Virus record (IMG/VR): IMGVR_UViG_2744054962_000001
DNA length: 64,000 bases
Strand: one strand, 5' to 3'
Source: a virus
Lineage: Duplodnaviria; Heunggongvirae; Uroviricota; Caudoviricetes
A model generated the notes under the pieces. That model had not been told where the DNA came from and ran no database searches. It saw only the letters and a list, made by a program, of their open reading frames with translations. The translations under genes were made by a program, and so were the position numbers. The stretch's first letter is position 1, and every line of letters starts with the position of its first letter. Positions 36,048 to 64,000 of the stretch are shown here, in pieces.

Positions 36048-36172
36048 GATTACAGTGGATAGTAGCACTCATCACAGCGGTTATCCTACCGTCTATAGTG
36101 GTTTTTCTCCTCTCTATAGTGGTTGCTTTGCTCCCTATAGTGGATTATTCGCTCTCTATAGTGGATATCGAT
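36048..36172. repeat. Iteron array (origin-proximal, upstream of rep)
   Basis: Copies of CTCTATAGTGG(A/T)T at about 21-22 bp spacing (36091, 36112, 36133, 36155). Confidence 0.6.
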
Positions 36173-36278
36173 CATGTCTGAAGGCAGATGGCGCAACGGT
36201 TTGAGGTGGGCGGGGATCTTATTGGGTCTTTATGGGTCTCTTTGGTTCTCTTTGTGATCTGAATTACTGGATCGGGCC

Positions 36279-36287: not shown

Positions 36288-36439
36288 AATCAGAGGATTT
36301 CAAGAACAGGTAACTCTACTCTTCTGTGGATATTTAAGGACATAAGAATCATGACTAAGAGTAGAGTTTAAAATATATCTATGTATATCAGTATGTTAAT
36401 GAAGAATTAAGTCATTAAGTTATCCATAAAAGACAATGT

Positions 36440-36556
36440 GCTCTACTCTCTACAGTGGATATATACAGCTCTCCAGAGTGGTTGTTTTACTCTTCATAGC
36501 GGTTATTCAGCTCTCTACAGAGGTTTCTTTGCTCTCCATAGTGGATGGCAACACCC
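36440..36556. repeat. Second iteron array
   Basis: Five copies of CTCTACAGTGGATA-like motif at about 21 bp spacing after an AT-rich stretch (36340-36430). Confidence 0.55.
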
Positions 36557-36589: not shown

Positions 36590-36650
36590 TCGGGGATCTC
36601 TTTGGATCTTCTATTTGATCTTACTTGGGATCTCTTATTTGGATCTATCC
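36590..36650. promoter_or_regulatory. GATC (Dam site) cluster in origin region
   Basis: Five GATC in about 60 bp; similar cluster at 36205-36275. Confidence 0.45.
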
Positions 36651-49072: not shown

Positions 49073-49486
49073 ATGGCAAGAGGTATGTATGTCTTATGCG
49101 AAATTGAAGGTGTGCTGGCAAATGCCAGCCATCGTAAATCAGTATCTGACGCGGATGCAGGCCAGCTCATTGCCGGTGATGAACTCATTTTCCCCACCAG
49201 CCGTATGTTGCGTGGTTTTGCTCGCTCAGGGGCTGAAGTGGTGCTTATCAGTAGCCGCTCTGAAACTCTTGAAGCGCCAACTAAACGATGGCTGAAAGAT
49301 TTTGGCGTTGATTATGACTGGCTTCATCTCGTACCGAATGGCACCAGTTATGAGAAGCATATTAAGCGCACATTAGCGGAGCATAAAGGCGATCTGCTTA
49401 TCGCTGCGCTGGTGCACGATCCTCGACTCCGTGCCGCTTTAGCCGACTCTCACCATCGACCGGTCATCTATGAGGTGAGCAAATGA
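49073..49486 (+). CDS. Hypothetical protein
   Basis: 138-aa ORF translationally coupled between thyA and DHFR. Confidence 0.4.
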   Translation: MARGMYVLCEIEGVLANASHRKSVSDADAGQLIAGDELIFPTSRMLRGFARSGAEVVLISSRSETLEAPTKRWLKDFGVDYDWLHLVPNGTSYEKHIKRTLAEHKGDLLIAALVHDPRLRAALADSHHRPVIYEVSK

Positions 49487-49959
49487 AGATGATCGCTGCT
49501 GTTGGCCGTAACTATGAGATCGGCATAGCGAATGAACTCCCCTGGCGTTGTTCTACCGATCTGAAGCTATTTAAGAGACTCACCAAAAACGCCACTGTCG
49601 TTATGGGGCGTAAAACGATGGAAAGTCTCAAACGCCCTCTTCCAGAGCGTCATAACCTCGTTTTGACGCGCTCTCATGGCTTTGTACCAAATGGATTCTA
49701 TCCTGCTGGTGTGGATGATGTGTTGCGATTACCAGAGCCTGTGTGGGTGATTGGCGGGGAACAAATTTACTCGCTATTCATGCCGCATGTTGAAGAGATT
49801 TGGCTCTCCCACATCGGCGTTGATGTACCAAACGCCGATGCATTCTTCCCGGCAAGCATGATGCGTAACTTAGGCTTTGTGCCTGTTGAAACAGCTTATA
49901 CCCAACGAGCCAGCGAGGAAGAGCCTGGCTTTTCGCAGATCGTATACAGAAGGTCGTAA
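49483..49959 (+). CDS. folA: Dihydrofolate reductase
   Basis: MIAAVGRNYEIG...ELPW...VVMGRKTMESL...VIGGEQIY DHFR signature, 158 aa. Confidence 0.8.
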   Translation: MKMIAAVGRNYEIGIANELPWRCSTDLKLFKRLTKNATVVMGRKTMESLKRPLPERHNLVLTRSHGFVPNGFYPAGVDDVLRLPEPVWVIGGEQIYSLFMPHVEEIWLSHIGVDVPNADAFFPASMMRNLGFVPVETAYTQRASEEEPGFSQIVYRRS

Positions 49960-50603
49960 TGGATTACCGGATTGGGATCACTGGTGCTCAGGGCAGTGGG
50001 AAAACAACCCTGGCTAAATATATCGACAAACATTACGGAATCCCTTACGTGGATGCTGGTGTCGGAAGTTTGATGAGCCGCCTCGGTGTTCGAGTAGGTG
50101 AGTCTATGCCTCTATATGAGCGGCTTCAGATTCAAATGGAAATAGCAAAGCATATAGAGCTACTTACGCGTGGTGTTGAAGGCTTTGTTATCGATCGCAC
50201 ACCTGCTGATGTTATGGCCTACACGTTGGATTTGGTCGGCCATACAAATGAAGATCGGTGTATTGAGTTAGCCCTCGATATCGAAAAGTTTTGCCACAAA
50301 ACTGCTATTTCAAACTTTAACGCCATTGCTGGCTTACGCCCGGGAGTCGCTCTCTCAGAGCGAGATTACTTGCGATCACAACGAGCATCATTAGACCGTC
50401 TGTATGTCGCTCGTATTGATGCGTTGATGTGCGGGGAACTGACAAAAATTCACCTGCATCCGCAAAGGGGAGATCTGCAAACCTTCGTCGTTTCCAACCG
50501 ATATCGCACGGTTGAAGCAAGAGCCAGATCAGTGATGAGAATGCTAGATAACGCTGTAGAAAAGATAGAAAACCGGTTCTGTGGCCGAGTGACCGTTCAT
50601 TAG
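49959..50603 (+). CDS. P-loop nucleotide kinase (dNMP kinase-like)
   Basis: Walker A GAQGSGKTT at N-terminus, 214 aa, within nucleotide-metabolism operon. Confidence 0.45.
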   Translation: MDYRIGITGAQGSGKTTLAKYIDKHYGIPYVDAGVGSLMSRLGVRVGESMPLYERLQIQMEIAKHIELLTRGVEGFVIDRTPADVMAYTLDLVGHTNEDRCIELALDIEKFCHKTAISNFNAIAGLRPGVALSERDYLRSQRASLDRLYVARIDALMCGELTKIHLHPQRGDLQTFVVSNRYRTVEARARSVMRMLDNAVEKIENRFCGRVTVH

Positions 50604-50664
50604 AAATTGTTCGCCTCTTCGACATTGCGACAATAAAACTCTCAAAATGGGTTAAGGATAAAAA

Positions 50665-51084
50665 ATGTTTAGTGAAATGTTGCTTGAAGATGAACTGGAT
50701 CGGAAAACAACAGAGGCTTTGATTCGTGTAGCGGACGAACATTCCCGGTCGCTTATGACCGATCGAGAGGCTCGTCTGGCTATTCGTGCCATATTCGAAA
50801 CTGCGCAGGGGCTTGTTGGCGCACAAGTAGGTGAAGCCATTAACATCGCCATGTCTCAGTTCAGTGAAGACAGTAAAAAGCCTCTGTTTCCTATGCATTT
50901 GATGCTGGCTGGTGGCACGGTGCTTTATATCTCTGTTTGTCTGGATAGCAACCAAATCAATATTCTCAACACTGCGTCAGGTAAGTGGAAAGATCCGATT
51001 GTCTGTGAAACCAGTGAAGAAACTTTGAAAAAAGCGGCTCAATTTGTACGTAGCGCACTACTTAAGGGCGCTAAGAAGTTGTAA
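50665..51084 (+). CDS. Hypothetical protein
   Basis: 139-aa ORF. Confidence 0.4.
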   Translation: MFSEMLLEDELDRKTTEALIRVADEHSRSLMTDREARLAIRAIFETAQGLVGAQVGEAINIAMSQFSEDSKKPLFPMHLMLAGGTVLYISVCLDSNQINILNTASGKWKDPIVCETSEETLKKAAQFVRSALLKGAKKL

Positions 51085-51093
51085 GGAGTTCTG

Positions 51094-51648
51094 ATGACAA
51101 CGATTGTTGCAGGCATCGATATCGAGTCTACGGGACTGGATTTCCTTGCTGGTCATAAAATTATTGAAATCGCAATTACCCGCTATGAACTGGAGACACA
51201 GACAATGGTTGATAGTTTTGTAATGCGGTTCAACCCGCGTCGCAGTATCGATCCGAAAGCGCAAGCGGTACACGGCATCAGTCTTGAAGATTTAGCCGCC
51301 GAGCCGTTACTAGCCGATCACGCTTCATCTGTCGCTTCGTATCTCTCTTCTTCCGATATTTGGATAGCCCACAACGGCGAAGCGTTCGATATTCCGTTTA
51401 TTAGGCATGAGCTGAAAAGTTACGGTTTTTCGCTTCCAGACATCCCATTGATTGACACTCTATTTTCCCTGTGGGCCACAGAAGACGGTAAACGTCCCCG
51501 CCTTGAAGAGTTGGCCTTCTCTCTTGGCTTTATGTACGATCATACTAAAGCACATAGTGCCTTATATGACACAAACTTAATGATGCAATGCTTCTTTAAG
51601 GCACGTAATAAGTACGGATTTTTTAAATTACCCTCTGAAATTGTGTAA
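51094..51648 (+). CDS. DnaQ-like 3-prime to 5-prime exonuclease (DEDDh)
   Basis: Exo I GIDIESTG, Exo II HNGEAFD, Exo III HSALYDT. Confidence 0.7.
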   Translation: MTTIVAGIDIESTGLDFLAGHKIIEIAITRYELETQTMVDSFVMRFNPRRSIDPKAQAVHGISLEDLAAEPLLADHASSVASYLSSSDIWIAHNGEAFDIPFIRHELKSYGFSLPDIPLIDTLFSLWATEDGKRPRLEELAFSLGFMYDHTKAHSALYDTNLMMQCFFKARNKYGFFKLPSEIV

Positions 51649-51652
51649 AACA

Positions 51653-51691
51653 AAAGCCTGCTTTAAAGAGAGTTTAAAGCAGGCTTTCTTT
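51653..51691 (+). terminator. Long hairpin terminator
   Basis: AAAGCCTGCTTTAAA gagag TTTAAAGCAGGCTTT followed by CTTTT. Confidence 0.6.
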
Positions 51692-51808
51692 TAAAGAACA
51701 GCCGCCTTTCAATCATTTCCTGCCTGTATTTAATACTTTTCCGCCTGATAGGTTTAGTCAAAATGTAGCTATCGAAACGCAAATGTAACCAAGCAGAAGG
51801 AGACTTAC

Positions 51809-52618
51809 ATGAGTTCGGTTGAAAATGTAATGGCAAATGATGATCTGGACGAGCTGACAGCCATGTTGCAATCACTTGATGAGCCAGTAAAAAAAGCCGC
51901 ACAGGTTGAAAATACTGATGATATTGACGATCTGCTGCTCGGCCTCGATGCTGGCGTAGCCATGAGTTCTGATGATGTTGCCGAAGAACTGTTCAATGAA
52001 GAAAAAGCAGGTGATTTCAGCTCTGCTTTAAATGAGTTGGAGTTAGCGCATGAGCCTATAAACGTAATTAACGCTGAAAGTGTTGAATCTGCCGAAAACG
52101 AGCCAGAACAATTGGGATTGATTGAGGTTGAAGAGTGTGTTGATGTTAATGATGAATTAAAAGTTCAACAGTCAAATGATAGCAACACAAATAAAAAAGC
52201 GCGTACTGCAAGAGGTCCTCGTTTTACTTTAAGTGATAAAGATGATTCGTTTTTCAATAAAGCAGGCTTAGAAACAGATATTTTCTTAGACGCTTACGAA
52301 AACGCGCCTGTCAAAGCAAAGGATAAGATATTAAACCTTCTTAATTGGTTTAGCGGAGGTCCAGATATTAGTGTTTACACGGTAATTTCCATGAGACACC
52401 TTCTCACAGAAAAGAAGGCTACAAGTAATAGTATTAAGATTGCTTTAATGAGCAATCCAGAAAAACCGTATCCGCTTAACACTGCGTCAACTCAGGCTGG
52501 GCAAATGATGGCTGTATTTCCAGCGACAGGAATTGCCGTTAGAGACGGTGGAAATCTAACATTGAACGAAGAATCACCGATCGTTAAGAAGTTTGTAGCG
52601 GAGTACACTATTGGATGA
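51809..52618 (+). CDS. Hypothetical protein with strongly acidic N-terminal half
   Basis: First 110 aa dominated by Asp/Glu (DDLDELT, DDIDDLLLGLD, DDVAEELFNEE); 269 aa. Confidence 0.45.
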   Translation: MSSVENVMANDDLDELTAMLQSLDEPVKKAAQVENTDDIDDLLLGLDAGVAMSSDDVAEELFNEEKAGDFSSALNELELAHEPINVINAESVESAENEPEQLGLIEVEECVDVNDELKVQQSNDSNTNKKARTARGPRFTLSDKDDSFFNKAGLETDIFLDAYENAPVKAKDKILNLLNWFSGGPDISVYTVISMRHLLTEKKATSNSIKIALMSNPEKPYPLNTASTQAGQMMAVFPATGIAVRDGGNLTLNEESPIVKKFVAEYTIG

Positions 52619-52693
52619 CGTCCCCCTACTGAAAATAAAGCCCATAGAGAGCTTTATAGTGCTGGGTAAGCCAATCACATATCCAGCACCACA

Positions 52694-52740
52694 AAAACGC
52701 GCCAGAGAGCTTCTCGTTTGCATTTCTGGCGCGTTTTATT
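52694..52740 (+). terminator. Hairpin terminator
   Basis: AAAACGCGCCAGA ... TCTGGCGCGTTTT. Confidence 0.5.
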
Positions 52741-52801
52741 TGATTGTCAGACATAAAATCAAATGCAAAAATAGGTAATCACTTACCTATCGAGAAAGAA
52801 G

Positions 52802-53395
52802 ATGATTGCAGCCGAAAAAATCAAACAGCGAAAGCGCGACAACTCTCTTCGTGACCTCTGGAGAACACCTGACTGGCTGTTTTCTGCCATTCAACGTTAT
52901 CTTGGAGTGACATTTGATGTTGACGTTGCCTGCAACAAGGACAATGCGAAGCTGCCTAATTTCATAGGCGTTGAGCGTGATGCTTTGAAATCTGAATGGG
53001 GAAAGCCAGGTACAATTGCCTTCCTCAATCCACCCTACTCCAAAATCTCCCCCTGGATTGATGCGGCTATACGTGAGCAGGCTCGCGGAGTTACAACAGT
53101 GATGCTAATTCCTCAATCCCTCGATACAAAGTGGTATGAGCGTGCAACAGAGTGTGCGAATGAGACGATTATTCTGTCTGGTGGCCGCGTAGCGTTTGTC
53201 GAGCCTGACGTCAATTTGGGTCAGGTAGAAGTAAACATCAACCCCGGTGGCAGTATGCTCGTTGTTTTTCGAGGATTCTGTCAGGACGCTGGGCACTCTA
53301 TAAGCAAGATCCCTTTGGACGTCATGAAAAGTCTGGGAGGGTATGATCCTGCGAATGTGATCAGGAAAAAAAGACCATCAAAGAAGGCTGCTTAG
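52802..53395 (+). CDS. Orphan DNA N6-adenine methyltransferase (phage Dam-like)
   Basis: Catalytic NPPY motif (FLNPPYSK); 197 aa with no adjacent restriction gene. Confidence 0.65.
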   Translation: MIAAEKIKQRKRDNSLRDLWRTPDWLFSAIQRYLGVTFDVDVACNKDNAKLPNFIGVERDALKSEWGKPGTIAFLNPPYSKISPWIDAAIREQARGVTTVMLIPQSLDTKWYERATECANETIILSGGRVAFVEPDVNLGQVEVNINPGGSMLVVFRGFCQDAGHSISKIPLDVMKSLGGYDPANVIRKKRPSKKAA

Positions 53396-53416
53396 TTTGT
53401 TCTGGCGTCTGTAATT

Positions 53417-53480
53417 AGCCTGCTTCTGTATATATAAATAACTACATATTAATTATTAATATACGGAAGCAGGCTGTTTT
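53417..53480. terminator. Long AT-rich hairpin, second copy of the 4255-4316 family
   Basis: AGCCTGCTTCTGTATAT ... ATATACGGAAGCAGGCT with one G-U wobble, followed by GTTTT. Confidence 0.5.
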
Positions 53481-53581
53481 ATATCAGAGACTCCCAGACC
53501 TGAACACCACTACAGAATCCACTAGAACCCCTTCCCAGACGCTTTAAAATCGATTTTATGAACCACTTTAAGGAAACCAAC

Positions 53582-53812
53582 ATGTCATATCCGACTAATG
53601 TCGTTGCGCTCGTAGAGAGCGATTTTCTGGCCCAGGCTCGTGAAATGATGAAAGATCGTGAGCAGGCTTTCAACTTGTACGAATGGGCAATTAAGTGCTT
53701 GCATCTTGGGGAGCATCGCGAACTTGTTGAACAGCTTTTAGGTGAGTTGATCAACGAGGTGTTTGCCTTGAATGTTCAACTACATGGTCGAAAAAATAAT
53801 CAATCGAAATGA
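53582..53812 (+). CDS. Hypothetical protein
   Basis: ATG at 53582 preceded by AAGGAAACCAAC; 76 aa. Confidence 0.4.
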   Translation: MSYPTNVVALVESDFLAQAREMMKDREQAFNLYEWAIKCLHLGEHRELVEQLLGELINEVFALNVQLHGRKNNQSK

Positions 53813-54395
53813 TAGATAAGTACAAACTATTCATAAAGTGAATTGTAAGTGCTAAGATCTGATAGTTTCCAGTCGTAGACTGGAGACTCGACCTGATGGG
53901 TGGGGGTAAGCGTCACTGGCGTCAGGTTTAAAAAAGCTCACTACCAGCGTAGAACCGGTGCCGTTTAGGTGTCGGGGAAGGGGGAACCAAAGTGAGCAGA
54001 GACAAGGGTCACTTTATGATTGTCGAGTCTGGGGTGTTTCGAGAGGTTGAATCCAGTACTCCCCTTCATAAAGTGTGGGAAGATCTCGGTTCTGGGGTGC
54101 TGTCATCCATAACTTCCCAAGTCTAAGCTGGCAGTAGACTTAGACCATAGCTTTTCAGGTTATGAAACGACCAGGTTGGTGAGGAATTTTATACTCACCT
54201 CCCTGGGAGAGTATTACCTGAAAAGACAACCTCTCACTTCGTTCGAGGTGAACTTCACTCACTTCGTTCGTTCAGTTCAGGTTTATAAAAAACCTGTTCT
54301 GGGAAGTAATTTGTTTATTTTAATAATTATTAACACGCACGCGTGTGCGCACGCGCGAGGAAAAAATCGGCGCGGCGCTTGATTCAGGAGTTTAT
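53813..54395. other. ORF-poor structured region (candidate ncRNA or regulatory region) ending in a 25-bp alternating purine-pyrimidine tract
   Basis: No ORF of 60 aa or more on + strand across about 360 bp; multiple local hairpins; direct repeat TCACTTCGTTCG x2; Z-DNA-prone ACACGCACGCGTGTGCGCACGCGCG at 54333-54357. Confidence 0.3.
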
Positions 54396-54989
54396 ATGAC
54401 GACGAAGACACCAGCCCGATCGCAAGCAAAAACTCGCAAAAAAGCCAAAAACAAAAATTCTCCCCGCACCAATCCAACAACGCCTGTCGTAGAGTTCAAT
54501 CCCCAGCTCAAAACCGTGAAAATCTTTAGTGATGGCTCTTGCCTTAAAAATCCGGGTGGCCCGGGCGGTTACGGTATCGTTCTCCAGTATCGTGGTGAGG
54601 AACGCGAGTTCTCAGATGGTTTTCATAGCACCACCAATAACCGCATGGAGATGATGGGCGCACTTATCGGGCTGGAGCGTTTGAAATATCCATGCAACGT
54701 TATTTTGTACTCTGATAGCCAGTATCTGAAAAACGGCATGACACAGTGGATGAAATGGTGGAAACGTAATGGATGGATGACTTCTGATAAAAAACCGGTA
54801 AAGAATGTTGATCTGTGGAAACGTCTGGATGAGGCCGCAAGTCGACATAATGTTCGCTGGAAGTGGGTTAAAGGTCACGCCGGGCATCGTGAAAATGAAA
54901 TATGTGATCGACTCGCGAAGATCGCAGCTTTTTCAGCAGCAGATATGCCTCACAAGAAAGATATTGGTTTTGTTTATAACAAGTGGTAA
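54396..54989 (+). CDS. rnhA: Ribonuclease HI with basic N-terminal extension
   Basis: [49 protein letters not shown] match RNase HI; SD CAGGAG upstream of ATG 54396. Confidence 0.85.
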
Positions 54990-55134
54990 GTAAGTGTTTA
55001 CCTATCATTTTAAATCATGTATCTTATCAGCGTCAGGATGACAATGTGTCGGTAAGACACAGTTCCAGGATGGAACGAGAAAGGCGGCTGGCAATCGCCA
55101 GCCGCAACTCTTTCTGACACTGGATGGAGTCCAC

Positions 55135-55629
55135 ATGGCACGTCAAACCTATTTCACTTCTGCAACTAAACGTCCTCGTTCTTTACGTCAAATTTTGGCC
55201 GAATTGTTTAGCGGTCGTGTTATGTCACGTCTTGATGAACTAGAGACTACCGTTCGGTTGCTGAATGAACGTTTAGATAATCAAGCGTCAGTTGTTGCGA
55301 ACGTGGGGGCGATTGTTGCCTCTGGTTCTTCACGCGAAGCGAAAAGTACACGGCCTTTAGTGAAGGAGAAAAACAACAAGGACAGTTCGAATGGAAAATT
55401 TTCAAAGAAAGAGGCTGAAACCAATGGCCTACGTTCTCATTATAGTTTCACTGGCGACGGTAGCCGTTCCAGCCGGCCAGAGCCTTTTGATGCCGGGTTC
55501 ATCCATCACCACACCTCCGTCGACGACAATTACCACCACTCCAGTAGAGCGTCCTGTCACTCTGGATGGGATGACGGTGGATGCGATACCTCAAGTTCAT
55601 CCGGTTACTCAGGATCATGCTGTGACTAA
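55135..55629 (+). CDS. Hypothetical protein; 3-prime half overlaps an alternative-frame ORF and may not be translated as called
   Basis: Coiled-coil-like N-terminus then low-complexity Ser/His/Cys-rich tail; overlapping ORF 55391-55642 has a hydrophobic N-terminus. Confidence 0.3.
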   Translation: MARQTYFTSATKRPRSLRQILAELFSGRVMSRLDELETTVRLLNERLDNQASVVANVGAIVASGSSREAKSTRPLVKEKNNKDSSNGKFSKKEAETNGLRSHYSFTGDGSRSSRPEPFDAGFIHHHTSVDDNYHHSSRASCHSGWDDGGCDTSSSSGYSGSCCD

Positions 55630-55638
55630 GGCGGTTGT

Positions 55639-55827
55639 ATGAACTGGTTTTCAAATCACTTTGGAAAAATTTGGCTGGCAATTCTTGCCCTCATGGCCGC
55701 CGGTTGGGTATCGAACATTATAAAACTTGTTTGCTCTGGCGATCTCCAGTTTCAGGCTGGCATGACCTTGGCTCGTGTAGTTGGGATTTTTGTTTTTCCA
55801 GTCGGTTCGGTACTTGGTTATTTCTGA
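55639..55827 (+). CDS. Small membrane protein
   Basis: 62 aa with two hydrophobic helices. Confidence 0.35.
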   Translation: MNWFSNHFGKIWLAILALMAAGWVSNIIKLVCSGDLQFQAGMTLARVVGIFVFPVGSVLGYF

Positions 55828-55920
55828 CGGCTGTTAGTGCATATGCATTGACCATCTTTGCGTAAGCAATTTATGAAACTATAAAACAACTTGTTTTGAC
55901 AAATAACAAAAGGAAAACAC

Positions 55921-56346
55921 ATGTTAGGTTTCTTCAAAAAGAAAACTCGTAAAGCAGTTATCGAAGTCAAAAAAATGGAGAACCGTGATGCGGTTGAGGC
56001 CACCGTGTGGGGCGCGTACATGATCTCCTATGCCGACGGCACATGTGACGCAAAAGAAATTGCCATTCTTGAGAAGACAATTGCAGCTCTGCCTGCGTTT
56101 TCTCCGTTTGCTGGTGAAATTGCCCAAATGAGCGCCAATATCCGTGCTCGTTACGAAGCGTCCCCTCGTTCTGCTAATGCACAGGCTATTCGTGAGCTGT
56201 CTGATATTGCGGGTACTCCAGAGGCGGTCGATGTTCTGTGTCTGTGCCTTGATATTGCCGATCAGGATGGCATTGGTGAACAAGAAGAGCAGGCACTGAA
56301 AAAGATCGCCCAGGCGCTTCAGTTGTCACTGGATGCTTATCTCTAA
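55921..56346 (+). CDS. Hypothetical protein, possibly TerB-like
   Basis: 141 aa, all-helical acidic protein; TerB resemblance is by overall pattern only. Confidence 0.35.
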   Translation: MLGFFKKKTRKAVIEVKKMENRDAVEATVWGAYMISYADGTCDAKEIAILEKTIAALPAFSPFAGEIAQMSANIRARYEASPRSANAQAIRELSDIAGTPEAVDVLCLCLDIADQDGIGEQEEQALKKIAQALQLSLDAYL

Positions 56347-56504
56347 TGCTTGAGAGATTCCGGCTTGTGATCGTCATTGCTCTTCTGGTGATGGCGGTGT
56401 TGGTGGATTTTACGGGAAAGATGATGTCTGTCATTTCTGATGGCGTCCTCATTGGTCTGGCGATCTACTTCGCTTATCCGCTAGTCCGTAAAGCAACGTG
56501 TTAA
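56346..56504 (+). CDS. Small membrane protein (52 aa)
   Basis: ATG overlaps upstream stop (TAATG); two hydrophobic helices; followed by hairpin terminator. Confidence 0.3.
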   Translation: MLERFRLVIVIALLVMAVLVDFTGKMMSVISDGVLIGLAIYFAYPLVRKATC

Positions 56505-56506
56505 TA

Positions 56507-56533
56507 ACAAGGGCCAAATGGCCCTTGTGTTTC
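56507..56533 (+). terminator. Hairpin terminator
   Basis: ACAAGGGCC aaat GGCCCTTGT followed by GTTT. Confidence 0.55.
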
Positions 56534-56643
56534 GTTGACCGAAATAGAGAGTTTGCACCTTTACGTTTAGCTTGCTCCCCTTTTATGCCACATCACAATA
56601 AAGCCAATAAGAAAACAACTTGTTTAAGAATTAGGAAAAACAC

Positions 56644-57213
56644 ATGTGCAAGAAATGCAAAGCGATAGCTGATGAACAAAACGCCTTATTCGAAGAAATG
56701 GATGCTAATGAACTGGTCAAAATGTTAGCCATTCTTCGAGGAATAGAAGACGTTTCCATATTTGAGAGAGTGGTTACAGCACTTAATTTTGAGTCCACCT
56801 TTGAAGAGCCAACTCAGGTTGTAGCTTTAGCACATCATTTCGGTGTTCATTATCTTGCTGAAAAAGAGCGCGCTGATAAGTTGCAGGCGACTTTGGATAT
56901 GGTGAGCGAGACTCAACGAACTGATGACACTAACAAGAGTGAGACGATTATTGCCAGCAAAGATCGTGAAATTGCTGGGCTTAAATCCTCTCTAACGATG
57001 TTGATGTCTGCGTTCAATCTTATGTCTTCTCAGGCGGGTTATAAAATGCCATCACTAAACAGCGATGATCCGATGGCCGTTCGTCAGCTTTTGGGAGCAA
57101 TGGCCGACCAACTCGACGACACAAAGAGTCGCCTTGAAGACATGATGCGTGAGTTAAGCCATCGACATAACCTCGCAACACAACCACACAAAGTCTTTCA
57201 AAGCTCTAATTGA
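56644..57213 (+). CDS. Hypothetical protein
   Basis: 189-aa ORF preceded by AAAACAACTTGTTT motif and GGAAAAACACATG. Confidence 0.45.
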   Translation: MCKKCKAIADEQNALFEEMDANELVKMLAILRGIEDVSIFERVVTALNFESTFEEPTQVVALAHHFGVHYLAEKERADKLQATLDMVSETQRTDDTNKSETIIASKDREIAGLKSSLTMLMSAFNLMSSQAGYKMPSLNSDDPMAVRQLLGAMADQLDDTKSRLEDMMRELSHRHNLATQPHKVFQSSN

Positions 57214-57217
57214 TCTG

Positions 57218-57241
57218 ATATGGCCGCATGATCGGCCATAT
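57218..57241 (+). terminator. Hairpin terminator
   Basis: ATATGGCCG catgat CGGCCATAT. Confidence 0.5.
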
Positions 57242-57267
57242 TGTGTTGATAAAAACAAGGGTGAAAA

Positions 57268-57549
57268 ATGGCATACGGTACAGGGATTTACAACAATAAA
57301 GGAATTAACGTTACTGGCTTCCTTACACCTATTTTTTTTCTTGATCGATTTACGGCGTCATCAGGCTCTAAGACGTACTCTAATCCGCCACCGGGTAAAT
57401 CACTACATGCCGTGTGGTCATTAATGCCTCTTAACAACGACAACTACATCAATTTACCTGTTCCAAATGTTACTATTAATGGAAATACGGTTAGTTGGTC
57501 AAATTTATATACGGGGCTTGGTTCTTACATATACACATACTGGGGATAA
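57268..57549 (+). CDS. Hypothetical protein (AT-rich module, gene 1)
   Basis: 93 aa, Asn/Tyr/Gly-rich; lower GC than neighbours. Confidence 0.4.
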   Translation: MAYGTGIYNNKGINVTGFLTPIFFLDRFTASSGSKTYSNPPPGKSLHAVWSLMPLNNDNYINLPVPNVTINGNTVSWSNLYTGLGSYIYTYWG

Positions 57550-57551
57550 TT

Positions 57552-58166
57552 ATGTTCGGGATGTCAATTACTCAATCAGATGGAAGTTTGTGGATGAGTC
57601 CTGAATTTACTCCGCAAAATCTGATTAATAAAGGGACAATGTCTACATCTAAAGGTTCTGTTTTTCAAACATCAATCCCATCAAACAAATCATGTTTTTT
57701 TTTCATAAAAAGCAGTAATAAGGCGAACATGATGTTTATTCATGAACATAGTAACGGATACAATGCTCTCAGATTGCATCAGGTAAATGGTAGCCCCGGA
57801 ACAATAACAGTTTATGCTTTTTCTGATATGGTGTTACCACATTCTGGCTATGGCATTGCCATGTATAACAGCGCAGGCGCAATGGTGTATCACGGTGAGA
57901 TGATGCCCCTTGATGCGAAACTTATCACTATTTCTGACCCTCAATTTACAATAGATATGGGGTATCCATGTGCGGTAATGCCTGCTATGGTTGGAGTATA
58001 TAACTATAGACGAACCGATTACGACAGACCTGTCTATGTAACAATGACAGGTGCAACTGGAAACCAAGTATATAACGGTCAATGGTATTCCGGTAATGTC
58101 ACATGGGATATTAAGAAGATTTATACAAACAAAATTCTGGTGATAAATACCTCCAAGTATGATTAG
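57552..58166 (+). CDS. Hypothetical protein (AT-rich module, gene 2)
   Basis: 204 aa from ATG 57552 two bases after upstream stop; Asn/Tyr/Ser/Met-rich; no known motif. Confidence 0.4.
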   Translation: MFGMSITQSDGSLWMSPEFTPQNLINKGTMSTSKGSVFQTSIPSNKSCFFFIKSSNKANMMFIHEHSNGYNALRLHQVNGSPGTITVYAFSDMVLPHSGYGIAMYNSAGAMVYHGEMMPLDAKLITISDPQFTIDMGYPCAVMPAMVGVYNYRRTDYDRPVYVTMTGATGNQVYNGQWYSGNVTWDIKKIYTNKILVINTSKYD

Positions 58167-58315
58167 CCAATGCCTTTATTTGAAGGATTGCCTGTTTATT
58201 TCTATTTAGTACCTTTTCATTTTTGAAATAATAGCACCATTAAACAAATCACTTCTTAATGGTGCTATTATGAATACAGCCCTTTCCATCATCGACGATC
58301 CCAACTCAAACGCTG

Positions 58316-58343
58316 CTATCGACTATCGACTATCGACTATCGG
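58316..58343. repeat. Heptanucleotide tandem repeat (CTATCGA) x 3 plus a variant copy
   Basis: CTATCGACTATCGACTATCGACTATCGG immediately upstream of start codon at 58350. Confidence 0.6.
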
Positions 58344-58349
58344 CAGGAA

Positions 58350-58691
58350 ATGAATGTCATCCACGAAATCGTGGCCGAGTGCGAGAAAGAGATCGCCTTC
58401 ATGTATCAGGTACACGACTTCGTTTATGGCGACGAACGCCACAACATGATTAATCGCCTGCTGAGACTAAACCATCGACCAGATGAAGATCGCTCACGTT
58501 TAAATCGAGGTTGTTTGGATAAAGTCGATCTGGAATGGGTGAAACAGAATATTTGGGCCGAGTACTGGAGGAAGGTCACGGACATGACTAACGTTTTGCT
58601 GATCATGCCAGCTTCCCGTCGAGATGAGTGGCGCGAGCAGTTTATAGAGGGCAAACAGGAAGTCATCAAAACTGACAGAACCGGCTACTAG
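58350..58691 (+). CDS. Hypothetical protein
   Basis: 113-aa ORF downstream of heptamer repeat. Confidence 0.45.
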   Translation: MNVIHEIVAECEKEIAFMYQVHDFVYGDERHNMINRLLRLNHRPDEDRSRLNRGCLDKVDLEWVKQNIWAEYWRKVTDMTNVLLIMPASRRDEWREQFIEGKQEVIKTDRTGY

Positions 58692-58818
58692 ATGAAGGTT
58701 AAAGAGTTCGTTGGTGTACCTGAGTTCAAAGTGGATACAGACATCCCTACGATGGTTTGATCTGACAGCTATCTGCAATTTGCACAGATATCTGCCAGAT
58801 CTGGTTCAGATTAATACA

Positions 58819-61800
58819 CTATATCTGCCCACCTACTCCTTTGAACTTTTCAATAAACGTGACGATTTTCTGGAAAACGGTCTGTTTTTTCGTTTTATAT
58901 TGCGGGTTTAACGGACTAAGTTTTGGTAATGTCTCGTTTAATTCTGTGCCATTTTCGGTGGCGTATTCGCGTTTTAAAGACGTGCGAATATAGCGTTTCG
59001 CCGCCTCTTCATTGAGATTTTCTTCTTTTATCAATGCTTCTGCTTCACGTTGCTGTTCGCGTTGAGCAAACGTAAAGAATGCCTCAATGATACTGGCTTT
59101 GTCTGGTAAATCATCCAGGTTCGTTTGCTGAATAAAATCGACCACCAGGCCCTCTTTCGCCCGGTTCCCCAGGCTTGAACGAATTAAGCGTTTGACCTCT
59201 TCGATCATTTCGCCCTTGCCTTTATTTTGTCTGTTGTGTTCGAAAATCAGTCCAAGGATATAATCCAGGTTTATTTCCTGAGACTTCAGCAAATCGACCT
59301 CAAAAACTACGTCATCCCAGTCAGTGGTTGATTTCTCTTTTTTCTCAGCTTCTTTCTCACGGCGTTGCCAGTCGCGAATATCGTTATAGGCAGAACGATA
59401 ATCCTGAATCTTGCGTTCAGCAGGGAGACGAATCGTTTGCAATTCAGCGAACTTTTCATCATCCACATAATGTTCTTCTTTGAATTTTTCTACCGCAACA
59501 GGATCGCTAAGATCGATTTGTTGCAGGGCTTTCAGCGTGGCAAATTCATCATAGTTTTGCAGGATGTTCTCGGCACGCAGGTATTCACCAAACAGTTTAA
59601 CGAAGTCTTTCTTCTCTTTTTCACTTTCAATACTGGTAGGGTCAGGGAACCGTTGTTCCAATTCTGAAACTACTGCCATAAAGCCGCGCTTAGCTTCACC
59701 AGTGGCAGCATCAGTAAAGCCTTCCATATACTCTGCATAACTCTTTTCTAAAACCACATTTTTGGTGTTTTTGCCACCAAACAGCGTTATGGCATCAATA
59801 GTTGAGCGTTCCAGATCCCGGAAAGTGACGATATTACCGAAGGTTTTAGTTGCATCATAAATACGGTTGGTGCGGGAAAATGCCTGCATCAAGCCGTGAA
59901 AACGCAGGTTTTTATCGACGAATAGCGTGTTCAATGTTGGAGCATCGAAGCCAGTTAAAAACATCCCCACGACAATTAACAGATCGATATCCTGATTTTT
60001 AACCCGCTGGGCTAAATCACGATAGTAGTTCTGAAAACCGTTACTGTCGGTGCTGAAGTTAGTTTTAAAATAGCTGTTATACTCACGAATTGCAGCATCA
60101 AGAAACTCTTTAGCACTGCTGTCCATTGCGCTGGTATCAAAAGTTTCATCGGATATTTCACCAATGGCATTTTGTTCTTCATTAGCGGCAAAGGAGAAGA
60201 TTGTCGCAACACGCAGTGGGTTATAGGTGGCAGATTTATTAGCGGCTTCCTCTTGTAACCGTTTAAACGTCGCGTAATAGGCTTTCGCGGCATCCACGCT
60301 GCTTACTGCCAGCATGGCATTAAAACCTTTGGAACCAGGGAAAGTACGGTGGGTCTTCTGACGGAAATTATTCAGAATATATTGCGTGATTTCCTGAATA
60401 CGCATGGGATGAAGAAACGCCTGCTGATTTTCAGCCGCACTCAGTTTTTTCTCGTCAGTTTCTGTCTCTAAAGACTTAAACTGTGGCCGCACATCGTTGT
60501 AGTCCACCTTGAATTTGAGCACTTTTTCGTCACGAATCGCATCGGTAATTACATACGAATGCAATTCACGACCAAATACGCTGGCGGTTATTTCTGAGCC
60601 TAAGGCATTTTCCGGGAAAATAGGTGTGCCGGTAAAACCAAACTGATAATAGCGTTTGAATTTCTTCTTCAGGTTTTTCTGCGCTTCTCCAAACTGGCTG
60701 CGGTGACATTCATCAAATATAAACACCACTTGCTGATTGTATACAGGCAGGTCGCTTTCTGCTTTCATCAGGTTATTAAGTTTCTGAATAGTGGTGACGA
60801 TAATTTTGTTATCGTCCTTATCCAGATTTCGTTTAAGACCTGCTGTATTTTCCGAGCCGTTAACACTATCTGGCGAAAAACGCTGATATTCCTTCATGGT
60901 CTGGTAATCGAGGTCTTTCCTGTCGACCACGAAGAAGACTTTATCAATAAAGTCCAGTTCTGTTGCCAGACGCGCGGCTTTAAAGCTGGTCAGTGTTTTA
61001 CCAGAACCGGTGGTGTGCCAGATAAAGCCACCGCTTTCGGGGTTAGACCAGTTTTTCGCTTTATAGGAGCTGTTGATTTTCCATAAGATTCGTTCGGTGG
61101 CGGCAATCTGGTACGGTCGCATCACCAGTAGTGTCTGACTACTGTCAAACACGCTGTAGTTCACCAGAACATTCAGCAGAGTATGTTTCTGGAAAAAGGT
61201 AGCGGTAAAATCTTTGAGGTCTTTAATCAGCGTGTTGTCTGATTTCGCCCAGTTCATGGTGAAGTCAAAACTATTTTTATCGCGCTTTGTGGTGTTGGCA
61301 AAGTAACGGGTATCGGTGCCGTTAGAAATGACAAACAGTTGCAGATACTTAAACAGGGAATTTTCGCTGTTAAAACTCTCTTTACTGTAACGATGTATCT
61401 GGTTGAAAGCCTCACGAATCGCCACGCCGCGCTTTTTCAGTTCGATTTGCACCAGAGGCAAGCCATTAACCAGGATAGTTACGTCATAACGGTTAGCGTG
61501 AGAACCTGCCTGTTCAAACTGCTGGATAATCTGCACTTTGTTGCGCATGAGATTCTTTTTATCGATCAAATAGATGTTCTCAAGACGCCCGTCATCAAAA
61601 ATAAAGTCGCAAATATAGTCGATATGGATTTTACGGGTCTTATCCAGAATGCCATCACTCGGGTTGTCCAGATACTGCTCCGTGAAACGCCGCCACTCGC
61701 TGTCATTAAATACCACACCATTGAGGCTCTGAAGCTGTTCCCGAACATTGGACAGCATCGCCAACTGTGATTTTACCGAAATAAATTCATAGCCCTGATT

Positions 61801-61935
61801 CCGCAGGTCCTGAATCAGTTCCCGTTCCAGGTCCGATTCGCTCTGGTAGCTGTCGCCTGTTTGCTCAGCTTTGATGTACTTATCAAGGACGATAAAGTTA
61901 TTGGATTCAGCAATGGTGTGTGTTTGATGAGTCAT
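58819..61935 (-). CDS. hsdR: Type I restriction enzyme R subunit (Type IC, EcoR124I-like)
   Basis: 1038 aa; N-terminus [24 protein letters not shown] matches my recollection of EcoR124I HsdR; helicase motifs TGSGKT and DECHRS. Confidence 0.8.
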
Positions 61936-62056
61936 AGCGCATCCTTTGTGCCGCCTGGCAAGGGCCGGAAGGGCGTTAAGAGTGACTTCCGGCGCGTAAA
62001 AAATAGTCTATATACAGACCGGGTGTTAAGGAGGCCCGGTCGGTAGCAATGGTCAA

Positions 62057-63394
62057 TTATTTACTGACAGTTTCAGGTTTTGGGAAACTGAACAGTAAAT
62101 CACGATAGTACTCGTATTGTTTCTGGCGCAACTCGATTTCACGCGGAAGGCCTTCGGTGATGGAGTTAGTCAGGGTGTCGAATTTATCCAGAATCCGAAC
62201 GATTTCAGACTGGATGGCAAGGGATTTTTCCGGATTGCCCGGGCAGGGGATGGGGATGAGTAGTTTTGACATCAATGCATTTGAGCTTAGATTCGGCTGT
62301 GCTCCGCCCCCTGCAAGGATATAAATAGTCTCTGTATTTAACAATAAAAAATGGTATAAATAATTATTGTTTAGAATATTTTCTTTGGGTATAAATTTTC
62401 CAACCCGTTGATTAAGATAACATTTTATTTCTTTTTTATAAATCCCCACTTTTCCTGTAGTGGCACCTGACATTGCAATCAATATATTTCCCATAGATAC
62501 CTCAAAGGAGGATAAATCTTCCTTGTAATCATTTAGTGAAAAGTATTTCACCTCATCTAAGTTAACATTAAACCCATCTATATTTGTGATTCTAACTATC
62601 GGTAACCCAGTTTCTTTAAATAAGCTGCTTTTAAATGCAAATCCATTTTTAAAATCACAAACATCCTTCAGGGTTTTCCACTCAACCTCAACCCCATCCA
62701 GCAATTTTTCCAGATAAATAGGTTTTTCCTGCTCCTCATCAAAACTCAACAACTGGTCGCGATAGTAGTTGTATTGTTTTTTACGCATGCTAAGCTCTGC
62801 TGTAAGCTCTGCTGTAAGGGCGCTGAATTTGTCCAGAATTCGCACGATTTCAGACTGGATAGTAAGGGATTTTTCTGGATCATTAGGACAAATGATAGGA
62901 ACCAGTATTTTTTTAAATCTTGATTTTGAAATATTAAAGCGTGTTACACCACTAGCTGTTTTTGCTATTTCAGAGCGCATGAAATGGGTTCGAAAAAGGT
63001 ATTTTGCGAACTCCGGTTTGATTTTTATGCTGTTACTGAATCTGATACCAAAAGAAAAGCTGTTTAAATACACTGATTCTTCGAAGTGTACTGTAACGGC
63101 GGAGGACATGCCTGCTTCATCAGCAATTTCAGATGAGCCAGTAAATAAAACATCCCCATATCTTACTTTATTTTGTCTTTCTCCCTCACTAATATATACA
63201 TAATCAGTAGGGTAATCATTCACATCTAAATAACCAAATATTTTTTTGTATGAAACATATCTGGCATTACCGTTCTCAAAATCAGATTTACTCTTTCCTG
63301 TTAGGCCACCATAAATTTCAGCGACGTTCCCCAATGGCAACCACTTAACTTCAACCCCATCCAGCAATTTTTCCAGATAACTTAACTCGCTCAT
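62057..63394 (-). CDS. hsdS: Type I restriction-modification specificity subunit (Type IC) with two TAEL repeats
   Basis: Conserved N-terminal, central and C-terminal blocks ([20 protein letters not shown]...[23 protein letters not shown]) with two AT-rich variable target-recognition domains. Confidence 0.8.
62793..62816 (-). repeat. 12-bp tandem repeat encoding TAEL-TAEL in the hsdS central conserved region
   Basis: AGCTCTGCTGTA x2 on + strand, equivalent to ACAGCAGAGCTT x2 on coding strand. Confidence 0.7.
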
Positions 63395-64000
63395 TTCTGT
63401 ACCTCGCAGCCTTCAATTTCAGCCACAATCGCATCAATATCTTTACGCAACTGGTCGATTTTGCTGACCGTGGTTTTCAGCTCTGCATTCAGTTCAGCAA
63501 TATTGATTATTTCGCGGTTATCTTTCGCTTCCACATAGCTGCTTACCGACAGGTTATAGTCATTCGCGACAACGGTCTCAAACGTGACAGATTTCGCCAG
63601 ATGAGCAACATCTTCCTTGCTGGCAAATACCTGCATAATCTGTTCGATATGGGCATCGGTCAGGATATTGTTGTTAGTCTCTTTTTTGAACAGTTCGCTG
63701 GCGTCAATAAACTGAACTTTGGTATCCGTTTTATGTTTAGACAGCACCAGAATGTTTACGGCAATGGTGGTGCCAAAGAACAGGTTCGGTGCCAGTGAAA
63801 TCACGGTTTCGACATAGTTATTATCGACCAGATACTGACGGATTTTCTGCTCCGCGCCGCCACGGTAAAAAATACCCGGGAAGCAGACAATCGCAGCACG
63901 ACCTTTGGCAGAAAGATAGTTCAGTGCATGTAATACAAACGCAAAGTCAGCTTTGGATTTGGGGGCCAGAACGCCAGCCGGGGCAAAACGCTCATCGTTA
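63391..64000 (-). CDS. hsdM: Type I restriction-modification methyltransferase subunit, C-terminal part (5-prime end beyond window)
   Basis: Frame open to window edge on minus strand; overlaps hsdS start by 4 bp. Confidence 0.7.

What the first reader, a model, noticed from the sequence alone, without database searches (positions are those of the whole stretch)
58316..58343. Heptanucleotide tandem repeat directly upstream of a start codon
CTATCGA is repeated three times plus a variant copy, ending 7 bp before the ATG of gene 58350-58691. Repeat-number changes would alter promoter or RBS spacing, a known mechanism of phase-variable expression.
Basis: seen in the sequence. Interest (0 to 1): 0.4.

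Follow-up and report, generated by a model that had tools for sequence, protein, structure and literature searches.

The report
Unstable 7-base repeat in dead methylase gene
The 7-base repeat is real and its copy number differs between closely related plasmids, but it lies inside the start of a DNA-methylase gene that is broken and cut short here, so it is a slippage-prone leftover and not a working on/off switch for a gene.

Summary
The repeat is confirmed: (CTATCGA)3+CTATCGG at 58316-58343. It is the only such array in the window and was absent from 300 simulated windows. The window is an SSU5-type phage-plasmid of E. coli. In about 190 related plasmids a 561-aa DUF4942/phrog_6263 DNA-methyltransferase gene starts at the ATG equivalent to window 58270, and the repeat, normally 2 units encoding I-D-Y-R, lies in its codons 16-20. 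The "start codon" at 58350 is that protein's internal Met23.

The window's copy is a dead remnant with three defects: two extra units (+14 nt) break the frame, a CAG>TAG stop at 58689 is unique to this window, and homology ends at about 58732-58757, where a type IC restriction-modification cassette takes over.

Copy number is polymorphic (2, 3, 4, 5 or 7 units). Two plasmids with only 4 substitutions in 40 kb differ by one unit. Eleven of the 12 expanded alleles in complete E. coli genomes sit in the 49 plasmids with the truncated gene. Only two otherwise intact genes (PK8276, 4 units; Shigella sonnei CP045933, 3 units) are thrown out of frame.

Verdict: a slippage-prone microsatellite in a pseudogene. 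It acts at most as a rare frameshift hotspot, not a promoter/RBS spacer. Low to moderate interest.

The parts
58316..58343 (+). Heptanucleotide simple-sequence repeat: (CTATCGA)x3 plus the variant unit CTATCGG, counted here as 4 units.
   Evidence: The homologous tract has 2 units in most relatives and 3, 4, 5 or 7 units in 14 others.
58270..58353 (+). Ancestral start codon (ATG 58270) and the frameshifted 27-codon leader ORF (MNTALSIIDDPNSNAAIDYRLSTIGRK*). Its TGA stop (58351-58353) overlaps ATG 58350 as ATGA.
   Evidence: translation; the 561-aa ORF starts at this ATG in every 2-unit or imperfect-tract relative read that is not truncated by the hsd cassette or by another frameshift.
58350..58691 (+). 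It corresponds to residues 23-135 of the ancestral methyltransferase and ends at a CAG>TAG nonsense codon (58689-58691) found only in this window.
   Evidence: it aligns to positions 23-127 of phrog_6263 and 23-135 of phrog_16000. TAG in 1 of 68 loci, CAG in the other 67; no Pfam domain.
58270..58757 (+). Whole remnant (pseudogene) of the DUF4942/phrog_6263 DNA-methyltransferase gene, about the first 160 of 561 codons. Homology to intact genes decays between about 58732 and 58757.
   Evidence: Alignment; the L080 versus L083 breakpoint at locus position 20492 corresponds to window ~58731; matches to intact genes end at query 655-658, which is window 58754-58757.
58228..58271 (+). 16-bp palindrome or hairpin (arms 58228-58243 and 58256-58271) whose 3' arm contains the SD-like GGTG and the AT of ATG 58270. 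It may be a translational or operator element of the methylase gene.
   Evidence: fold; z = -4.1 for the 171-nt stretch. (arm variants AATAGC/GCTATT, AATTGC/GCAATT, AATTAC/GTAATT); covariation count inconclusive.
58819..61935 (-). hsdR of the type IC (EcoR124-like) restriction-modification cassette that replaces the 3' part of the methylase gene. The 1038-aa ORF is intact and convergent with the remnant.
   Evidence: Pfam HSDR_N, SWI2_SNF2, T1R_D3-like, EcoR124_C. Annotation.
62057..63394 (-). hsdS (445 aa) with two TAEL repeats, encoded by the 12-nt tandem repeat at 62792-62815. The 3' part of hsdM follows (63391 to the window end, frame open).

Best explanation
The tract is a slipped-strand (replication-slippage) microsatellite that arose inside the 5' coding region of an orphan DNA-methyltransferase gene (561 aa, DUF4942 domain, PHROG 6263) of SSU5-type phage-plasmids. 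The ancestral sequence, GCT ATC GAC TAT CGG (A-I-D-Y-R), happens to form two 7-nt units. In one flank haplotype it expanded to 3 or more units and then became length-unstable. Because 7 is not a multiple of 3, each gain or loss shifts the frame:
- 2, 5 or 8 units read through.
- 3 or 6 units run into a stop after about 52-58 codons.
- 4 or 7 units stop at a TGA that overlaps the internal Met23 ATG.

In this window the tract has 4 units and the gene is a pseudogene remnant. Its frame is broken by the tract, it has a private nonsense codon at 58689, and its last ~400 codons have been replaced by a type IC restriction-modification cassette. Here the repeat has no regulatory role and drifts in length because nothing selects on the frame.

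Shown: the anatomy, the frames, the homology, and the polymorphism with its concentration in truncated genes. Inferred: slippage as the mutational mechanism, relaxed selection as the reason for the concentration, and the absence of any function for the remnant.
For: (1) Position in the gene. In L002 the annotated 561-aa CDS starts at the ATG equivalent to window 58270 and reads through a 2-unit tract. The same 561-aa ORF (557 aa in two of the most diverged loci) is open from that ATG in 47 of the IMG/VR loci, including diverged ones where the tract is imperfect (GATATCGACTACCGG, still D-I-D-Y-R).

(2) Internal start. PHROGs aligns the window ORF from profile position 23, whereas the intact protein aligns from position 1.

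(3) Three defects in the window: +14 nt in the tract, TAG at 58689 (1 of 68 loci) and loss of homology at about 58732-58757 next to hsdR.

(4) Polymorphism. Alleles of 2, 3, 4, 5 and 7 units were read directly in 15 loci.

(5) Speed. L080 (4 units) and L081 (3 units) differ over 40.2 kb by 4 substitutions and 2 indels, both at tandem repeats. The window, L003-L006 and L008 have 0-1 mismatch in the 3,040 nt upstream, yet carry 3, 4 or 5 units.

(6) Distribution. In complete E. coli genomes, 11 of the 49 plasmids with the remnant/hsdR junction are expanded, against 1 (PK8276) of about 180-190 with a non-truncated gene. PLSDB adds one more remnant allele (CP142569) and one intact-gene allele (Shigella sonnei CP045933).

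(7) Origin. All expanded remnant alleles share the flank haplotype CCCAACTCAAACGCTG, which fits one founding expansion followed by repeated gains and losses. L048 carries a different haplotype and is therefore an independent 2>3 expansion.

(8) Neither the promoter nor the terminator scan gave a hit on the + strand around the tract.
Against: No expression data exist, so a residual role of the remnant or of its transcript cannot be excluded. The remnant is convergent with hsdR. With 2 units it is a 158-aa ORF common enough to have its own PHROG (phrog_16000). The concentration of expanded alleles in truncated genes could partly reflect shared ancestry (one haplotype) rather than relaxed selection. 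Copy numbers of most 2-unit records were inferred from match lengths and ranking, not read base by base. In the 4-unit state the leader stop overlaps the Met23 ATG (ATGA), an arrangement that can support translational coupling, so '4 units = off' is not proven for intact genes such as PK8276.
Confidence: 0.85

Rival explanations
1. The tract is a real, if low-rate, contingency locus of the phage-plasmid family. Slippage reversibly switches the orphan methyltransferase between full-length (2, 5 or 8 units), off (3 or 6 units) and possibly an N-terminally shortened form made by stop-start coupling at ATGA (4 or 7 units). That would give phage-plasmid populations mixed methylation states. The window would then hold a fossil of such a switch.
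For: The unit length is not a multiple of 3, the tract lies in the 5' ORF of a DNA methyltransferase, and expanded alleles have 3 or more units and differ between strains. These are the sequence criteria used in surveys of phase-variable methyltransferases (PMC7383803). Two otherwise intact genes are out of frame only because of the tract: PK8276 (4 units; 537/539 identical downstream) and S. sonnei CP045933/L048 (3 units; 534/539). L048 is an independent expansion. The tract changes about as often as 4 substitutions accumulate in 40 kb.
Against: More than 95% of intact genes have just 2 units, a state with little slippage potential. Diverged relatives in Klebsiella, Salmonella and Enterobacter have an imperfect tract. 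No intact gene with an expanded in-frame allele (5 or 8 units) was found. All but two expanded alleles are in truncated genes. The rough rate implied, about 1e-6 per generation (inferred from 1 change versus 4 substitutions in 40 kb and a textbook E. coli substitution rate), is far below that of classical contingency loci. In this window the gene cannot be switched on at any tract length.
Confidence: 0.09
2. One reading: the repeat is a spacer between a promoter or RBS and the start codon of a functional gene at 58350-58691, and copy number tunes that gene's expression, as the 7-bp repeats do in the hmw1A/hmw2A promoters of Haemophilus influenzae.
For: The tract ends 6 nt before an ATG and AGGA precedes that ATG. 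Copy number varies between isolates. NCBI's pipeline annotates a CDS from this ATG in several relatives.
Against: The ATG is Met23 of a conserved 561-aa protein. AGGA is 1 nt from the ATG. The consensus scan found no promoter on the + strand. The ORF ends at a nonsense codon unique to this window and matches no Pfam domain. The sequence upstream of the tract is conserved as coding sequence, with the same ATG and an open frame in all 2-unit relatives.
Confidence: 0.03
3. The copy-number differences are assembly or sequencing artefacts, or the array is a protein-binding (iteron-like) site rather than a slippage product.
For: Tandem repeats can be mis-assembled in long-read assemblies. TCGA recurs every 7 bp in the array.
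Against: The array is at most 49 nt, far shorter than any read. The same alleles recur in independent assemblies from different countries: 5 units in Singapore and Argentina, and 3 units in two separate assemblies, NZ_CP190020 (China) and NZ_OW849379. Relatives function with only 2 units or an imperfect tract, which argues against a required binding array.
Confidence: 0.02

Closest known systems
Intragenic simple-sequence repeats in DNA-methyltransferase genes (phasevarions: mod genes of type III systems; hsdM/hsdS of type I systems in Haemophilus, Neisseria and others)
   Same: A tandem repeat whose unit is not a multiple of three lies in the 5' part of a methyltransferase ORF. Gains and losses shift the frame, and repeat number differs between strains (criteria quoted from PMC7383803).
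   Different: The usual allele has only 2 units. Expanded alleles are rare (about 5% of E. coli plasmids) and nearly all sit in a truncated, dead gene. The host is a phage-plasmid of E. coli, not a host-adapted mucosal pathogen. No in-frame expanded allele was found in an intact gene, and no methylome or expression evidence exists.
7-bp tandem repeats in the hmw1A/hmw2A promoter regions of nontypeable Haemophilus influenzae
   Same: Both are heptanucleotide tandem repeats whose number varies between isolates.
   Different: The hmw repeats lie in the promoter region, number around 20 or more (strains with 20-24 were built in that study), and grade transcription. Here the tract has 2-7 units, lies downstream of the conserved start codon inside the ORF, and acts, if at all, by frameshift.
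Microsatellite instability in pseudogenes (neutral length drift of a tandem repeat after gene inactivation)
   Same: The length variants are concentrated in copies where the gene is already truncated. Near-identical plasmids differ at the tandem repeats first.
   Different: Nothing essential; this is the category the window's copy belongs to.
12-bp TAEL repeat of type IC HsdS (EcoR124I versus EcoR124II)
   Same: This applies to the neighbouring hsdS gene, not the heptamer. The same LTAEL(n) repeat has 2 copies in the window and L081 and 3 in L080, L001 and L082. In EcoR124I/II, 2 versus 3 copies changes the recognition-site spacer from N6 to N7 (PMC3874165).
   Different: The recognition sequence of the window's enzyme is unknown, and its target-recognition domains differ from those of L080 (only partial similarity across hsdS).

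Membership tests
Promoter/RBS-spacing phase-variable locus (hmw1A type) | The tandem repeat lies between promoter elements, or between the promoter/RBS and the true start codon. | tested here: not met
   The tract is 46 nt downstream of the conserved start ATG 58270 and inside the ORF. ATG 58350 corresponds to profile position 23. No + strand promoter match.
Promoter/RBS-spacing phase-variable locus (hmw1A type) | Repeat number varies between isolates. | tested here: met
   Alleles of 2, 3, 4, 5 and 7 units.
Promoter/RBS-spacing phase-variable locus (hmw1A type) | Expression of a functional downstream gene changes with repeat number. | not testable with these tools
   No expression data. The downstream ORF is a truncated remnant with a nonsense codon.
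Intragenic-SSR phase-variable DNA methyltransferase (phasevarion type) | The repeat is inside the ORF and its unit length is not divisible by 3. | tested here: met
   A 7-nt unit in codons 16-20 of the 561-aa ORF.
Intragenic-SSR phase-variable DNA methyltransferase (phasevarion type) | The tract is long enough to slip (at least 3 units by the survey criterion of PMC7383803). | tested here: inconclusive
   Met by the window (4 units) and 14 relatives. Not met by the 2-unit or imperfect tract of about 95% of family members.
Intragenic-SSR phase-variable DNA methyltransferase (phasevarion type) | Both on-length and off-length alleles occur in otherwise intact genes of closely related strains. | tested here: not met
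   Two off alleles occur in intact genes (PK8276 and S. sonnei CP045933). The only on allele in intact genes is the ancestral 2 units. The 5-unit alleles occur only in truncated genes.
Intragenic-SSR phase-variable DNA methyltransferase (phasevarion type) | An intact methyltransferase lies downstream of the tract. | tested here: not met
   In the window there is a TAG at 58689, and homology ends at about 58757, before the catalytic C-terminal part (NPPY motif near residue 490 of L002).
Intragenic-SSR phase-variable DNA methyltransferase (phasevarion type) | Methylation and gene-expression states switch with tract length. | not testable with these tools
   This needs methylome sequencing of length variants.
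DUF4942 / PHROG 6263 DNA methyltransferase of SSU5-type phage-plasmids | Sequence homology to the family. | tested here: met
   The window ORF matches phrog_6263 at E = 8.9e-48 over positions 23-127. It is about 95% identical in nucleotides to intact genes.
DUF4942 / PHROG 6263 DNA methyltransferase of SSU5-type phage-plasmids | Full-length protein with the DUF4942 domain (residues 140-295) and the C-terminal SAM-methyltransferase region. | tested here: not met
   Only about the first 160 codons remain. Pfam DUF4942 is found in L002 but not in the window ORF. The window's copy is therefore a pseudogene remnant of the family, not a member with function.
Type IC restriction-modification system (EcoR124 family), for the neighbouring cassette | HsdR with the EcoR124-type C-terminal domain, and HsdS with TAEL repeats between the two target-recognition domains. 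| tested here: met
   Pfam EcoR124_C at E = 1e-71. LTAELTAEL in HsdS. The hsdM frame is open to the window end.

The most novel reading that the evidence does not exclude
The heptamer is a young contingency locus on a phage-plasmid. Once expanded beyond 2 units, it stochastically toggles the element's orphan DNA methyltransferase between full-length, off, and perhaps an N-terminally shortened form made by ATGA stop-start coupling. That would diversify the methylation state of phage-plasmid DNA, and possibly of the host, within a clone. It would be a phasevarion-like switch carried by a mobile element in E. coli, a species in which repeat-driven phase variation is rare. A more remote variant is that, in truncated copies, tract length sets how far ribosomes protect the remnant transcript and so how much antisense transcription reaches the convergent hsdR.
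Probability: 0.07. Interest if true: 0.55.

Novelty: new member of a known kind. Interest (0 to 1): 0.27.

Why it matters
For annotation, it shows that 'gene 58350-58691' is not a gene but residues 23-135 of a decayed methyltransferase. It also shows that a repeat next to an ATG can look like a promoter switch when it is really an intragenic frameshift site.

For phage-plasmid biology, it documents a variable spot where an orphan methylase and several small genes are swapped for a type IC restriction-modification cassette. It further shows that, in the one near-identical pair compared (L080 and L081), the only indels are at two tandem repeats: this heptamer and the TAEL repeat of hsdS.

If the rare out-of-frame alleles in intact genes turned out to revert at a useful rate, this would be an unusual case of repeat-driven switching of a methyltransferase on an E. 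coli mobile element. The present evidence points to ordinary neutral instability.

Tried and rejected
(1) Pfam on the 113-aa ORF and its three upstream neighbours gave no domains. A PDB sequence search with the intact protein gave no hits. NCBIfam gave only sub-threshold methyltransferase matches.

(2) The promoter/terminator consensus scan of 58050-58900 found nothing on the + strand. This is negative evidence only.

(3) The palindrome at 58228-58271 showed compensatory-looking arm variants. In the formal count, however, 82% of cells were paired against a shuffled mean of 81% (121 of 500 shuffles as high), with only 2 pairs changed on both sides. This is inconclusive.

The IMG/VR scan returned only the two alleles already found.

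(5) I tried to show that the window itself is clonal with the other expanded-allele plasmids over 25 kb. It is not. The window is mosaic, and its best 25-kb matches (about 98.6%) are other plasmids. Clonality was instead shown for L080 versus L081.

(6) I suspected an interrupted hsdM from the ORF list, but the frame is open to the window end.

(7) An assembly artefact was rejected, because the same alleles recur in independent assemblies.

Full report
**Observation**

The window reads CTATCGA CTATCGA CTATCGA CTATCGG at 58316-58343. Tandem Repeats Finder reports 58316..58342, period 7, 3.9 copies, 100% matches. It is the only array with a period of 4-9 and at least 3.8 perfect copies in the 64 kb. 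None of 300 first-order-Markov simulations of the window produced a period-7 array of even 20 nt. Two-unit (13-nt) period-7 matches, by contrast, are frequent by chance: 12.2 +/- 3.7 per simulated window and 7 in the real one. The repeat is therefore real and is a product of duplication, not chance. Six bases (CAGGAA) separate it from ATG 58350.

**Context**

The region matches about 240 E. coli plasmids of 105-125 kb and almost no chromosomes. Over 38000-58000 the window is 97-98.6% identical to Escherichia phages Cyrano, CMS-2020a and PhiR41_1, and about 77% identical to Salmonella phage SSU5. It is therefore an SSU5-type phage-plasmid. PLSDB holds the locus in 416 plasmids of Escherichia, Klebsiella, Enterobacter, Salmonella, Citrobacter and Shigella.

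**What the 'gene' is**

- In plasmid WEM25 p1 (L002) the annotated 561-aa 'DUF4942 domain-containing protein' starts at the ATG equivalent to window 58270. It reads through a 2-unit tract: GCT ATC GAC TAT CGG CAG GAA ATG, which encodes A-I-D-Y-R-Q-E-M.
- The same 561-aa ORF (557 aa in two of the most diverged loci) is open from that ATG in 47 IMG/VR loci. These include diverged ones where the tract is imperfect (GATATCGACTACCGG) but still encodes D-I-D-Y-R.
- PHROGs assigns the protein to phrog_6263 'DNA methyltransferase' (residues 1-561 to profile 1-548, E = 1.3e-299). The window's 113-aa ORF aligns from profile position 23.
- Pfam finds DUF4942 at residues 140-295 of the intact protein. The C-terminal part carries EPQAGRGD and NPPY motifs (read from the sequence) and gives weak adenine-methyltransferase matches.
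- ATG 58350 is therefore the internal Met23 codon, and the repeat occupies codons 16-20 of the ancestral gene.

**State of the gene in the window.** There are three independent defects.

1. The two extra units (+14 nt) put ATG 58270 out of frame. The leader ORF is 27 codons long and stops at TGA 58351-58353, overlapping ATG 58350 as ATGA.
2. CAG has become TAG at 58689. This change is seen in 1 of 68 loci, namely this window.
3. Homology to intact genes decays between about 58732 and 58757, 60-90 nt before the stop codon of a convergent hsdR.

Comparison of L080 with PK8276 (L083) shows that a ~6.2-kb hsdR-hsdS-hsdM block replaces ~4.2 kb, consisting of the last ~1.2 kb of the methylase gene and about five small genes. 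The cassette is type IC: HsdR carries the EcoR124_C domain and HsdS has TAEL repeats.

**Copy-number variation**

Units are counted including the last variant unit. Alleles read directly:

| Units | Loci |
|---|---|
| 2 | L002, L085, L086 and many IMG/VR loci |
| 3 | L006, L007, L048, L077 |
| 4 | window, L001, L003, L008 |
| 5 | L004, L005 |
| 7 | L084 (YPE3) |

Ranking searches were designed so that alleles close in length to the query rank first. They list, for complete E. coli genomes: 3 units in 3 records, 4 units in 6, 5 units in 2, 7 units in 1, and 2 units in the rest of 231. PLSDB adds CP142569 (3 units) and Shigella sonnei CP045933 (3 units). A synthetic 8-unit query found no allele of 6 units or of 8 or more.

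**How fast the tract changes**

L080 (4 units) and L081 (3 units) align over 40.2 kb with 4 substitutions and 2 indels. One indel is a 7-nt unit of this tract and the other is a 12-nt TAEL unit in hsdS. The window, L003-L006 and L008 have 0-1 mismatch in the 3,040 nt upstream, yet carry 3, 4 or 5 units.

As a rough inference, one tract change occurred per ~1e-4 substitutions per site. With a textbook E. coli substitution rate of order 1e-10 per site per generation (my own knowledge), this gives about 1e-6 per generation. That is similar to the 0.5-2e-6 quoted for a 3-unit tetranucleotide tract (PMC7383803) and far below classical contingency loci.

**Where the variants sit**

Forty-nine E. coli plasmids carry the remnant/hsdR junction. 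Eleven of them (22%) have 3-7 units. Among the ~180-190 plasmids without the junction, only PK8276 is expanded (4 units). Its gene and that of S. sonnei CP045933/L048 (3 units) are otherwise intact: their Met23-frame ORFs are 539 aa long and 537/539 and 534/539 identical to L002.

All expanded remnant alleles, and PK8276, share the flank haplotype CCCAACTCAAACGCTG. L048 has GCCAGCTCAAACACTG and a CGA end, so it is an independent 2>3 expansion.

The simplest reading has three parts. A chance 2-unit sequence expanded once in one haplotype. Longer tracts slip more readily. The variants persist where the gene is already dead. The shared haplotype means that phylogenetic non-independence inflates the contrast between truncated and intact genes.

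**Frame consequences (from the sequence)**

| Units | Result |
|---|---|
| 2 | 561 aa, full length |
| 3 | stop after 52-58 codons |
| 4 or 7 | leader stops at the TGA overlapping Met23 (ATGA) |
| 5 | in frame with a 7-aa insertion (LSTIDYR) |

No expanded in-frame allele was found in an intact gene.

**Mechanism and verdict**

The tract is a slippage-prone microsatellite inside the 5' coding region of a phage-plasmid methyltransferase gene. In this window it lies in a pseudogene remnant and has no plausible regulatory role. The promoter/RBS-spacing mechanism and the idea of a functional gene at 58350 are not supported. There is no + strand promoter match, AGGA is 1 nt from the ATG, and homology shows that the ATG is internal.

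The family-level possibility of a low-rate frameshift switch of the methylase remains open but weakly supported (about 0.07-0.09).

**Comparison with known systems**

- The tract works like the intragenic repeats of phase-variable methyltransferases (PMC7383803). It fails two membership features: an intact gene downstream in this window, and on- and off-length alleles in intact genes of close relatives.
- It resembles the 7-bp hmw1A/hmw2A promoter repeats (PMC8262952) only in unit length.
- The neighbouring hsdS TAEL repeat is a textbook case (EcoR124I/II; PMC3874165) and is polymorphic here between near-identical plasmids.

**Limits**

- There are no expression, methylome or read-level data.
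- Most 2-unit calls rest on match length and ranking, not on reading each record.
- The genome and metagenome pattern scans were uninformative.
- The covariation test on the hairpin at the gene start was inconclusive.

Noticed in passing
window 62792-62815 (minus strand, inside hsdS 62057-63394): A perfect 12-nt tandem repeat encodes the TAEL repeat of a type IC specificity subunit (..[16 protein letters not shown]..). The window and L081 have 2 copies; L080, L001 and L082 have 3. L080 and L081 are otherwise near-identical (4 substitutions in 40 kb), so this repeat also changes quickly. In EcoR124I/II, 2 versus 3 copies changes the recognition spacer from N6 to N7 (PMC3874165), so sister plasmids probably restrict and methylate different sites.
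   Followed up: partly
window 58228-58271: A 16-bp perfect palindrome or hairpin abuts the methylase start. Its 3' arm holds the SD-like GGTG and the AT of ATG 58270. Haplotypes differ on both arms (AATAGC/GCTATT, AATTGC/GCAATT, AATTAC/GTAATT), and the core CACCA..TGGTG is conserved in diverged relatives. It could occlude the ribosome-binding site or be an operator. The covariation count was inconclusive.
   Followed up: partly
window ~58732-64000; L080:20493-26726 versus L083:20493-24713: This is a cassette swap, not a simple insertion. The hsdR-hsdS-hsdM block (~6.2 kb) replaces the last ~1.2 kb of the methylase gene plus about five small genes, including an ead/Ea22-like gene. Both arrangements are common: 49 versus about 190 E. 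coli plasmids. The site looks like a variable defence/anti-defence spot of SSU5-type phage-plasmids.
   Followed up: partly
window 36092-36168, 36222-36254, 36439-36544, 36594-36646: There are clusters of 21-nt (3.7 and 4.6 copies) and 10-13-nt tandem repeats just upstream of a 351-aa minus-strand ORF (34949-36004). Relatives annotate a RepA replication protein in this stretch, so these are probably iterons of the plasmid origin. NCBIfam gave no hit for the ORF.
   Followed up: no
window 54345-54989: An RNase HI-like ORF is open for 214 aa in the window (GTG start). NCBI's pipeline marks the homologous rnhA as 'frameshifted' in all eight relatives whose annotation I read. This is either an annotation effect of an N-terminal extension or a conserved frameshift.
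   Followed up: no
window ~49483-49959 (by offset from L080:11244-11720): Relatives annotate a 'trimethoprim-resistant dihydrofolate reductase DfrA51' inside the conserved nucleotide-metabolism block (nrdAB, thymidylate synthase). It is probably the phage-plasmid's own DHFR and not an acquired resistance cassette.
   Followed up: no
L234, L269, L176, L233, L106 and other loci: The same heptamer, (CTATCGA)n, forms much longer arrays (several non-overlapping 20-mers in a row) in unrelated metagenomic and MAG contigs from Helicobacteraceae, Synergistales, Chloroflexota and Chitinophagales. None carries this gene's flanks.
   Followed up: no
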